DNA from: Carcharhinus longimanus
Taxonomy: Eukaryota
Reading direction: 5' to 3'
NCBI GenBank assembly: GCA_030264375.1
Contig: JASCQW010000132.1
Span: 92,556,898-92,620,897, forward strand
Length of the DNA stretch: 64,000 bases
The notes under the pieces were generated by a model that saw nothing but the letters and a program-made list of their open reading frames with translations, was not told the origin of the DNA and did no database searches. Positions 18,301-45,551 of the stretch are shown one piece after another. The translations under genes were made by a program, and so were the position numbers. Every line of letters begins with the position of its first letter. The first letter of the stretch is position 1.

Positions 18301-19674
18301 ACTCCGTGGAATGTCCATATTAGCGTATAGTTCCGTTTTTAGAAATGTGGGGGACACGTGGATAATGTGGACAGTTTAGTAGGTTTAGATCCAAGATTGC
18401 TCTTTAACGGGCAAGGGGCGAATGTAGTGCAATAACGGCCTGATAACCACCCCCGTTGGCGTAAAGTCTATCTGCTTAGCACAAGGATTGTGACATACCA
18501 AAGGAGACGCTAGAGATCAAAAGAAAATAACATTTCCCAATATTGGGGAAAATGGCAGGATCCCAGGCGGAAATGCAGAAAGACGTTTTGTTGCCACAAG
18601 CCTTTAATTTCGAAGTACCAGGTGCATCGTTTGTAAGACTGCGTATCTATTGTAAACAGTGGGATTGCATTCGTCCGTTTAACACCGACAAATATGCCTG
18701 TTAACGTTGCACTTAGAACACCGTTCCGCTGGAAAGCAACCAAAAACCTAAATAGAGCAACTGGACAATATGCGAGGAAATTGTGGATAACAGCTTCGGA
18801 GACAAGTTGTGTGACCTAACGAGAGGACAGGGAGAGACAGAGAGAGAGAAAAAAGTTGTAAAACAGAAGGAGGAAATGATACTGGGGTAAATCCCCTGCG
18901 GGGTTTTAATCAGATTACCTAGCAACTCGAAAAGGTTCACGCAGAATAGTTGTTGGACTGAAATCCGTCTGAGGAAATGTGGAAGTTTTCAAAGTGAAAT
19001 GGTGCATTGCAGAAAATCAACACAGAAACATGCTTGGATGTTCAAAAAAAAATCCGGGAGTTGATAACAGAAGCTCCACAGCCATCCTGAGCGATGCTGC
19101 TGCAGCCTGTTTATTGTATCTATACTCTTCACTGAAACCGCACAGATTATTCTATAATCTAGAGGTCAAATGTGTATTGACCATTAATTCACCAGGGCTC
19201 CAGTTTCTCTGGTGTCGTTCAGCAGCAACTGTACAGGGGAGGGGGGCGGGGGTGGGGGGAAGAAACAATGGGAGTGATCATTTCTTTTAAATGAAACGGT
19301 TTAATCTTTCCCGTTTTAGAGCAAAATGTAGAATGATCCTTAATCTTAGTCCAATGTAACTATTCAAGAAATAGTTGCTAAATGCTAAATGAAGGCAAAT
19401 GTCTCCTTTATTATGTCCGTGTCAACGTTTCATTACACTTCCAAATTCATCACACATCTTATTTTCAAAAATGTTGAATACATACCTGCGTTCCTACAAC
19501 CTTCCAATGCATGTGGGACATTGGCTTGCAAAGTAATATTGAGAAGATACTTAACTTTTAAGGTTACACAACCTTTTCCATATTAATAAGACGGCAAGAG
19601 ATTATGTATGACTTTTGCACAATATATTTTTGAAAATAGTCGGATAACATGCTATTTACCACCTGTGATGTGGA

Positions 19675-19843
19675 ATGCGATTGGGCGACTGGATCACATG
19701 GTCAGGTCACGTGAAAAGGAATAAGTCGGGCCGAAGGAAAATGGGTGTTTGGTGTAAATCGGGGGTGTAATGCTGCCATATATCACGCTATCTCGTAAAA
19801 CCGACACTGAAGAGCCTTGGCCAACAAATCACCAGACAAAATT
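19675..19843 (+). promoter_or_regulatory. HoxA7 promoter / conserved leader
   Basis: ATTGG 19680, CACATG 19695, CACGTG 19708, then CTCGTAAAACCGACACTGAA and ACAAATCAC..AAAATTATG. Confidence 0.8.
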
Positions 19844-20237
19844 ATGAGTTCGTCGTATTATGTGAATGCTCTTTTTCCCAAATATACGGCGGGGACATCC
19901 GTTTTCCAGAACGCGAGTGGCTTTACAGAAGCAACTTCTTGCGCTTTTGCTACCAACTCACAAAGATCCGGCTATGGAGCGGGCGCCAGCGCCTTCCCAG
20001 CCCCGATGGCCGGGCTGTACAATGTTAACAGTGCAATCTATCACGGTCCTTCCATGTACAACACAGGTTATAATCTAAATTCAGATTCCTACAACCTGCG
20101 CTGCTCTGCCTTAGACCAGAACATTCCAGTTCTTTGCAGCGATCTCAGCAAACAGGGTTGCGAAAAATTGGATCAGACAAACGTGCACCCTCAAGCAGAG
20201 AGCAATTTCCGGATTTACCCCTGGATGAGGAATGCAG
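19844..20237 (+). CDS. hoxa7: HoxA7 exon 1
   Basis: MSSSYYVNALFPKYTAG...NFRIYPWMR hexapeptide; donor G|GTATGG at 20237/20238. Confidence 0.96.
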
Positions 20238-20384
20238 GTATGGGACATAAATGTAACATAGCTACGAGAAACGTGCGAATGACCAGTTAAAATGAGCGCC
20301 ACTACATCCTGAAGGTAGTTAAGAGTTTTAATGATATCTGAGGAGCAGTTCCTCAAACGCATGTAGTATTGTATGCAGATAGCA

Positions 20385-20432
20385 ATCATAAAACTTTTAT
20401 TGCACAATTAATCAGTACAATCCTCGTAAAAG
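20385..20432 (+). promoter_or_regulatory. HB1-type homeodomain-binding element in the HoxA7 intron
   Basis: CATAAAACTTTTATTGCACAATTAATCAGTACAATCCTCGTAAAA: clustered TTTAT/TAAT/TCGTAAA sites at the position of the known Hoxa7 intronic HB1 element. Confidence 0.65.
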
Positions 20433-21150
20433 CACTCGACTTCCGCTCCTTTATAGTTAACAGCAACTCACATATTGCTTGTTTACTCACTTTTATCAAC
20501 ACCAAATAAGAACTATTTTTAACTGTTAAGCGGGAAAACTGTATATTCTCGAGTAAATGCAGAATGCTATGTTCCAGTTCGAAAGTAGCTTTTACACATT
20601 AGGCCAGGCCCGTGGAATTGAAGGTTTTTTTTTGCACCCCATGAGAGCTCTTTGGGCCCTTGTAAAGCTTCCCGCCCCCCCCCCCCCGCCCCCTCTGTGG
20701 ATGTAAGTTCGTGTTTAAAACGGGCCACTTTAGGGCGGTAATATATGAGTTCTGACCATCAGAATGAACCTGGCGGGTTCATTTGCTGGCATTCGAATCT
20801 GACACATTTGGGGTTGAAAGGACTTGCACGCAGGCTTAAGGTTTTAGTTACCTGTCATTTCCGTGTCTGAAATGTTAACATCGGTGCTCTTTATCTTGGA
20901 TGAAATAACAGTTTCGGAGTACCCATATGGATGTAAGTAAAGAGTTGAGAGCACAGAGTGACTTTCACTGAAACTTGGGATAGATCCTTGATTTTTAAAT
21001 GCTTTGTCAGAGGACCGCAGCGAGATTCCAAAATGTCCATTCGCACCTTAAAGAAGACCATTGGCATCTGAATATTTTGTTCAGCCACAGACATTCCAAT
21101 GAGTTATGAAAGCGTATAGGTAGGCGAAGAGGTAAAAAGGACATGAATAG

Positions 21151-21468
<318 letters not shown>

Positions 21469-45424: not shown

Positions 45425-45551
45425 CTCACCCCATTGGCTGCTTGCATCACATGAACAGCTAACTTTATACACTTGACCGCAAGTAGGAGGGTTTTATGGA
45501 ACAGAAAAACGACAACGCGAGAAAAATTAGTATTTTGCACTTCAGAAATTA
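45425..45551 (+). promoter_or_regulatory. HoxA4 promoter / conserved leader
   Basis: ATTGG 45433 and CACATG 45448, then AGTAGGAGGG..CAGAAAAACGAC..CAGAAATTAATG, typical of group-4 leaders. Confidence 0.8.

What the first reader, a model, noticed from the sequence alone, without database searches (positions are those of the whole stretch)
19741..19847. HoxA7 leader: two uORFs chained to the CDS by stop-start overlaps
Seen: uORF1 runs from ATG 19741 (MGVWCKSGV) to TAA 19768-19770, whose last A begins uORF2 (TAATG). uORF2 (MLPYITLSRKTDTEEPWPTNHQTKL, 25 codons) ends in TGA 19845-19847, overlapping the HoxA7 start (ATGA). Such overlaps are the hallmark of translational coupling / termination-reinitiation. 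As I recall the human leader, it keeps both uORF lengths and both overlaps, with a similar uORF2 peptide. Inference: a conserved translational relay, possibly encoding a micropeptide.
Basis: partly seen in the sequence, partly recalled or inferred. Interest (0 to 1): 0.85.

Follow-up and report, generated by a model that had tools for sequence, protein, structure and literature searches.

The report
Ancient Hox7 leader, incidental uORF overlaps
The start of this HoxA7 gene carries two short upstream reading frames that overlap each other and the gene, but the same DNA stretch survives without them in HoxB7 and at a gene-less spot in the HoxD cluster, so it is likely an ancient promoter-and-leader element whose extra start codons would at most dampen translation, not a ribosome relay.

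Summary
RNA-type contigs from 4 of 7 runs begin 5-16 nt before uAUG1, so both AUGs are probably transcribed. The relay and micropeptide readings are weak. ATGA opens 20 of 31 Hox genes here; shuffled leaders give the ATGA overlap in 20-37% and the whole chain in 2-4%. There is no TURBS core, no structure signal and no coding signature. The same leader blocks persist in HoxB7 without either uAUG, and between HoxD8 and HoxD5, where no Hox7 gene or any of the three ATGs remains (E 8e-13). A mouse survey of all 39 Hox leaders did not list Hoxa7 among 13 with conserved uORFs. Verdict: an old nucleotide-level Hox7 promoter/leader element; the uORFs likely act as ordinary dampeners, with uORF1 ribosomes skipping uAUG2. 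The human claim was untestable. The scan noted this before in another shark genome (e1-9851589). The orphan HoxD copy is the most interesting by-product.

The parts
19680..19684 (-). CCAAT box (on the minus strand), kept in HoxA7, HoxB7 and the HoxD copy
   Evidence: function inferred from the motif
19695..19713 (.). Two E-box-type motifs (19695-19700, 19708-19713), likely promoter elements
   Evidence: in mouse Hoxa7 the double E-box mutation eliminated promoter activity (PMC9456764)
19725..19736 (+). Likely main transcription start zone
   Evidence: RNA-type contigs begin at 19736 (X1, X11), 19733 (X9), 19725 (X3); weak hint only; mouse leader about 112 nt
19675..19770 (+). Longer in-frame form of uORF1 (31 codons), only on transcripts that start further upstream
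19741..19770 (+). uORF1, 9 codons, strong context (A at -3, G at +4) but about 5-16 nt from the likely 5' end; stop overlaps uAUG2 as TAATG
19770..19847 (+). uORF2, 25 codons, G at -3; stop overlaps the HoxA7 start as ATGA
19748..19832 (+). Four nucleotide blocks invariant in HoxA7, HoxB7 and the gene-less HoxD copy (19748-19755, 19779-19785, 19792-19806, 19824-19832)
19844..20237 (+). HoxA7 coding exon 1
20238..21235 (+). HoxA7 intron, 998 nt, GT..AG
21236..21468 (+). HoxA7 coding exon 2 (homeodomain)

Best explanation
The stretch is a Hox7 promoter-plus-leader element shared by three Hox clusters, likely held by selection on its nucleotides rather than on its reading frames, and its two upstream AUGs likely act as ordinary dampeners by leaky scanning, not as a relay. 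Shown: the blocks persist without uORFs in HoxB7 and without any gene in HoxD, and the ATGA overlap follows from the coding start. Inferred mechanism: ribosomes that start at uAUG1 stop on top of uAUG2 without initiator tRNA, pass it, and have 74 nt to reload before the HoxA7 AUG. Ribosomes that miss the cap-near uAUG1 partly start at uAUG2, end one base past the HoxA7 AUG and are mostly lost. The rest leak through to HoxA7. The uORF2 peptide is likely a by-product.
For: Third copy of the element at L051:1376-1208(-), between HoxD8 and HoxD5: E 7.9e-13 with the A7/B7 profile, 2.5e-9 with A7 alone, 1.5e-5 with B7 alone, no hit at E<=5 in reversed sequence, and no Hox7 coding remnant. It lacks all three ATGs; HoxB7 lacks both uAUGs and has a stop at codon 3 of the uORF2 register. 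Identity by codon position in the uORF2 register, A7 vs B7: 17, 21, 20 of 24, with 2 synonymous and 7 non-synonymous changes. In coding codons 2-21: 18, 18, 11 of 20, with 8 and 3. 20 of 31 Hox genes begin ATGA. No TURBS core. Fold z = +1.15, with 175 of 200 shuffles at least as stable; covariation term +0.45. Hoxa7 is not among the 13 of 39 mouse Hox genes with conserved uORFs. Removing uAUGs from three tested Hox leaders gave 1.2-2.5-fold derepression.
Against: The chain is still a 2-4% event for a single leader. At the uAUG2 position the three paralogues read ATG, ATT and CTG, so the column-wise majority is ATG: uAUG2 may predate the cluster duplications and may have been kept on purpose in HoxA7. 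Both AUGs are unchanged in all listed differences of 7 runs, but these are 95-99% identical relatives, and one difference in X11 is unlisted. Paralogues without the uORF cannot test peptide constraint inside the HoxA7 lineage. No ribosome or reporter data were available. Why Hoxa7 was left out of the mouse survey is unknown, because its SI Appendix was too large to read.
Confidence: 0.6

Rival explanations
1. A selected two-uORF switch in HoxA7, ATF4-like in logic: uORF1 is kept to carry ribosomes past inhibitory uORF2, so output depends on start-site choice (how far uAUG1 lies from the cap) and on initiator-tRNA supply.
For: uAUG1 is in strong context and uAUG2 sits under its stop. uAUG2 may be ancestral. 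In X13 the leader has 1 difference in 128 nt against 7 in the 50 nt upstream. Contig starts vary from 19608 to 19736. ATF4 uORF1/uORF2 logic is described in PMC5972666.
Against: uAUG1 has no counterpart in HoxB7 or HoxD. It lies only about 5-16 nt from the likely 5' end, where initiation is usually poor (recalled). The low divergence is already explained by blocks that paralogues keep without uORFs.
Confidence: 0.22
2. Both uAUGs are effectively silent: the main start site in expressing tissue lies too close to or downstream of them, or they are scanned over.
For: Hoxa7 failed a mouse survey that used CAGE starts, 90% placental conservation and ribosome-profiling support. One of 7 RNA-type runs begins only at 19843.
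Against: Six of 7 RNA-type runs have a contig that begins upstream of uAUG1. The mouse leader is given as about 112 nt. uAUG2 has a purine at -3.
Confidence: 0.1
3. One reading: ribosomes terminate and restart in place twice (TAATG, then ATGA), coupling HoxA7 to uORF translation, with or without a functional 25-residue peptide.
For: Both overlap types are those of coupled termination-reinitiation (PMC5972666). The chain has a 2-4% chance rate. No frame-breaking indel is listed in 7 runs. HoxA4 and HoxD4 share a uORF that ends in TAATG on the main AUG.
Against: No TURBS core. ATGA is supplied by the coding start. HoxB7 works from the same leader without uORFs and is one base shorter. No coding signature; the only substitution seen is non-synonymous.
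Confidence: 0.08

Closest known systems
Conserved inhibitory Hox uORFs (Ivanov et al. 2022, PMC8892498)
   Same: Short Hox leader with AUG uORFs in the same size range (7-21 codons there; 9 and 25 here); uAUG2 lacks G at +4.
   Different: Hoxa7 is not among their 13 genes. There are two chained uORFs here, uAUG1 is in strong context, and uORF2 ends on the main AUG.
Hyperconserved Hoxa leaders as E-box promoters (Akirtava et al. 2022, PMC9456764)
   Same: Double E-box just upstream of a roughly 110-nt leader; conservation at nucleotide level; no RNA-structure signal here.
   Different: Here the conserved blocks extend through the transcribed leader and recur in a cluster with no Hox7 gene.
TURBS-dependent termination-reinitiation (caliciviruses, influenza B; candidate cellular cases GAD, SLAMF1; PMC5972666)
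   Same: UAAUG and AUGA stop-start overlaps; SLAMF1 has a 29-codon uORF overlapping the main start.
   Different: No TURBS motif-1 core, the upstream frames are short uORFs, and no coupling is shown.
ATF4/GCN4 delayed reinitiation (PMC5972666)
   Same: A short first uORF followed by a second uORF that covers the main AUG out of frame.
   Different: There is no spacer between uORF1 and uAUG2, so skipping would be constitutive, and low initiator tRNA would be predicted to lower HoxA7, not raise it.

Membership tests
TURBS-type coupled termination-reinitiation | Stop and start overlap (UAAUG or AUGA) | tested here: met
TURBS-type coupled termination-reinitiation | UGGGA motif-1 core upstream of the overlap | tested here: not met
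   0 exact matches in 19725-19847; one 1-mismatch site inside uORF1, 102 nt before the main AUG
TURBS-type coupled termination-reinitiation | Structured RNA element upstream of the overlap | tested here: not met
   z +1.15; covariation +0.45 on only 3 sequences
TURBS-type coupled termination-reinitiation | Downstream output depends on upstream translation and stop position | not testable with these tools
   needs reporters
Conserved inhibitory Hox uORFs (Ivanov 2022) | uAUG inside the capped leader | tested here: inconclusive
   contig starts 19725-19736 in 4 of 7 RNA-type runs; contigs cannot show a true start
Conserved inhibitory Hox uORFs (Ivanov 2022) | Suboptimal uAUG context (no purine at -3 and/or no G at +4) | tested here: met
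   met for uAUG2 (C at +4); not for uAUG1
Conserved inhibitory Hox uORFs (Ivanov 2022) | Present in at least 90% of placental mammals and seen in ribosome profiling | not testable with these tools
   no mammalian sequence obtained; Hoxa7 absent from the published list; SI Appendix unreadable
Conserved-peptide uORF / micropeptide | Third-position relaxation, excess of synonymous change | tested here: inconclusive
   none against paralogues (2 synonymous, 7 non-synonymous), but these lack the ORF; 1 of 1 listed change in orthologues is non-synonymous
ATF4-type delayed reinitiation | Spacer between uORF1 stop and uAUG2 that senses initiator-tRNA level | tested here: not met
   they overlap by one base
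Hox E-box promoter / conserved 5' element | CCAAT box and E-boxes upstream of a short leader, conserved independently of ORFs | tested here: met
   promoter activity itself shown only for mouse Hoxa7 in PMC9456764

The most novel reading that the evidence does not exclude
HoxA7 kept an AUG older than the Hox cluster duplications and added a second uORF on top of it, so that HoxA7 protein is made through a TURBS-free double stop-restart relay, or a uORF1 shield, on a cellular mRNA conserved from sharks to mammals. The gene-less HoxD copy is the still-used promoter of the lost HoxD7.
Probability: 0.1. Interest if true: 0.75.

Novelty: new member of a known kind. Interest (0 to 1): 0.33.

Why it matters
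If the best reading holds, this is a caution: a stop-start overlap and a 'conserved peptide' in a Hox leader can both arise from DNA-level motifs and a Met-Ser start. It also supplies natural controls (HoxB7 and the orphan HoxD copy) for the open question of whether hyperconserved Hox leaders act as DNA or as RNA. If the relay were real, it would be a rare cellular case of coupled termination-reinitiation in a body-plan gene.

Tried and rejected
Distant orthologues: the motif scan of metagenome contigs gave 1 hit with no Hox gene beside it (L003). Genome contigs gave 0 and viral contigs 0. The mouse Hoxa7 leader in a supplement is cut at 400 of 1,168 characters, before the relevant end. The primer table has no Hoxa7 row. 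No listed run is on record as RNA (14 of 20 guessed RNA), and all 8 runs laid are contigs, so start sites, strand and level are not shown. RNA structure rejected. Six look-ups of older papers by id found nothing held. Kessel and Gruss 1988 (PMID 2894611) was seen only as a title in reference lists; that it and a 1987 note on homeobox mRNAs discuss these leaders is recalled, not checked (one search found 0). A recalled 'four cluster sequence' near Hox7 could not be matched to this element. The exon join used wrong splice coordinates; correct it. The first homeodomain query was out of frame and was redone. HoxB1 was dropped from the 31-gene count (no exon-1 frame found); the HoxB10 leader is partly N; genes outside the fetched stretches were not counted.

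Full report
Setting. The window holds a HoxA cluster from HoxA10 to HoxA4. The fetched stretches show three clusters, A, B and D, with group-5 and group-2 genes in D. This fits a shark or ray (recalled); a C cluster was not seen among 79 listed homeodomain matches, though only 150 of 366 candidates were scored. HoxA7 runs 19844-20237 and 21236-21468 around a 998-nt intron that contigs of 3 of 4 runs skip.

Observation. uORF1 (19741-19770, 9 codons), uORF2 (19770-19847, 25 codons) and both overlaps are as described. Contexts: uAUG1 has A at -3 and G at +4; uAUG2 has G at -3 and C at +4; the main AUG has A at -3 and A at +4. The next AUGs, at 19860 and 19866, are out of frame. A CCAAT box and two E-box-type motifs lie at 19680-19713. 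In mouse Hoxa7 a double E-box mutation removed promoter activity, and the leader is given as about 112 nt (PMC9456764, passages), which here would be 19732.

Is it transcribed? No run is on record as RNA. Of 7 guessed-RNA runs laid, contigs covering exon 1 begin at 19736 (X1, spliced; X11, another study), 19733 (X9), 19725 (X3), 19670 (X13), 19608 (X14) and 19843 (X8). Separate short contigs lie at 19485-19678 in three runs. This is a weak hint that both AUGs are in the mRNA, with uAUG1 only 5-16 nt from the usual 5' end. In the 7 runs that cover the leader (those six plus X19) the only listed difference in 19725-19847 is at 19815 in X13 and X14, a non-synonymous change of uORF2 codon 16. X13 has 7 differences in 19670-19719, 1 in 19720-19847 and 4 in 19848-20000. 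One difference in X11 is unlisted. These relatives are 95-99% identical, so the depth is shallow.

Is it more than chance? Any open -1-frame uORF must stop at the main AUG when the gene begins ATGA, and 20 of 31 Hox genes examined do. Within 110 nt of the start, 2 of 31 have a uORF ending there (A7, A13) and 2 of 31 end in TAATG (A4, D4); true start sites were not known for these. Shuffled A7 leaders gave the ATGA overlap in 7,339 and the two-link chain in 854 of 20,000, or 10,022 and 885 of 50,000 with invariant positions fixed. The second overlap is unremarkable; the chain is mildly unusual.

What is conserved? A DNA search of the genome with the leader found one other place, HoxB7 exon 1 (79% over 165 nt). 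It lies on another scaffold, while the HoxB cluster has a 2.1-kb gap at its expected place, so it is probably misplaced in the assembly; this is not proven, as no overlap joins the two. HoxB7 has neither uAUG, has a stop at codon 3 of the uORF2 register, and is one base shorter. A profile search of the window and 51 fetched loci found a third copy at L051:1376-1208(-), about 1.2 kb after the HoxD8 homeobox and before HoxD5 (E 7.9e-13). It was recovered with A7 or B7 alone, had no counterpart in reversed sequence, and is followed by no Hox7 coding remnant. It keeps the CCAAT box, E-box-like motifs and all four leader blocks but none of the three ATGs. Of 74 uORF2 positions, 44 are identical in all three copies, with no drop at third positions (12, 16, 15 of 24), whereas the coding start shows the usual drop (18, 18, 11 of 20). 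So a similar peptide across species is expected from nucleotide constraint alone. Against my reading: the triplets at uAUG2 are ATG, ATT and CTG, so an ancestral ATG is the simplest reconstruction, and the HoxD frame stays open past the blocks.

Mechanism. Shown: overlaps, contexts, paralogous conservation without ORFs, no TURBS core, no folding signal. From the literature (PMC5972666, passages): overlap-coupled reinitiation in the studied viruses needs a TURBS; after a short uORF the 40S needs distance to reload initiator tRNA; even a 1-nt overlap likely precludes that route. Inferred: uORF1 ribosomes skip uAUG2 and can restart at HoxA7 74 nt on, uORF2 ribosomes are mostly lost, and leaky ribosomes reach HoxA7 directly. 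The net effect would be modest dampening, like the 1.2-2.5-fold seen for three other Hox leaders. Whether the blocks act as DNA (factor sites) or RNA is untested; survival without a gene favours DNA or promoter function, unless the HoxD copy is itself transcribed.

Known work. Ivanov et al. 2022 (PMC8892498; parts 1, 2 and 5 of 9, passages, four datasets searched) examined all 39 mouse Hox leaders and list 13 with conserved uORFs. Hoxa7 is not among them and does not occur in the main text; the SI Appendix, which may give the reason, was too large to read. Akirtava et al. 2022: passages, supplement passages and the primer table. PMC12048685, PMC4470032 and PMC2080641: passages, nothing on this leader. 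PMC2200052, PMC2120959 and PMC2289952: reference lists only. Ten searches found no paper describing HoxA7 uORFs or the HoxD copy. However, the older Hox-leader and footprinting papers (Kessel and Gruss 1988; Santini 2003; Ravi 2009; Matsunami 2010) were not read, so prior description is quite possible.

Verdict. A real but ordinary pair of Hox leader uORFs inside an ancient element. Relay about 0.08; selected shield about 0.22; silent about 0.1; incidental overlaps with ordinary dampening about 0.6. Interest 0.33, carried mainly by the orphan HoxD copy and the possibly ancestral uAUG2.

Noticed in passing
L051:1376-1208 (-), G000:C32, between HoxD8 and HoxD5: Orphan copy of the Hox7 promoter and leader with no start codon and no Hox7 coding remnant; possibly the retained promoter of a lost HoxD7. 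No copy reached E<=5 in other fetched Hox stretches apart from four weak hits (E 0.5-4.4).
   Followed up: partly
HoxA4 leader in the window (about 56 nt before its start, near 45500) and HoxD4 leader (L049): Both paralogues have a uORF (18 and 19 codons) whose stop overlaps the main AUG as TAATG, plus a 3-codon uORF further up; HoxB4 has none. This is a better-conserved stop-start overlap than HoxA7's; Hoxc4 is on the Ivanov list.
   Followed up: no
HoxA3 (L043) and HoxB3 (L028) leaders: Both have an out-of-frame uAUG at -64 whose frame runs 45-47 codons into the coding sequence; in HoxD3 the matching AUG (-48) is in frame and would extend the protein by 16 residues.
   Followed up: no
L002 / L009:9781 (G000:C43) versus L033:4898-7011 (G000:C154): HoxB7 exon 1 sits on another scaffold while the HoxB cluster has a 2.1-kb gap at its place; likely a scaffolding error.
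   Followed up: partly
HoxA13 leader (L040): A 5-codon uORF at -14 also ends in ATGA on the main start; HoxD13 has no such uORF.
   Followed up: no
window 19485-19678: Short contigs in three guessed-RNA runs upstream of the HoxA7 promoter; may be read-through or longer isoforms.
   Followed up: no
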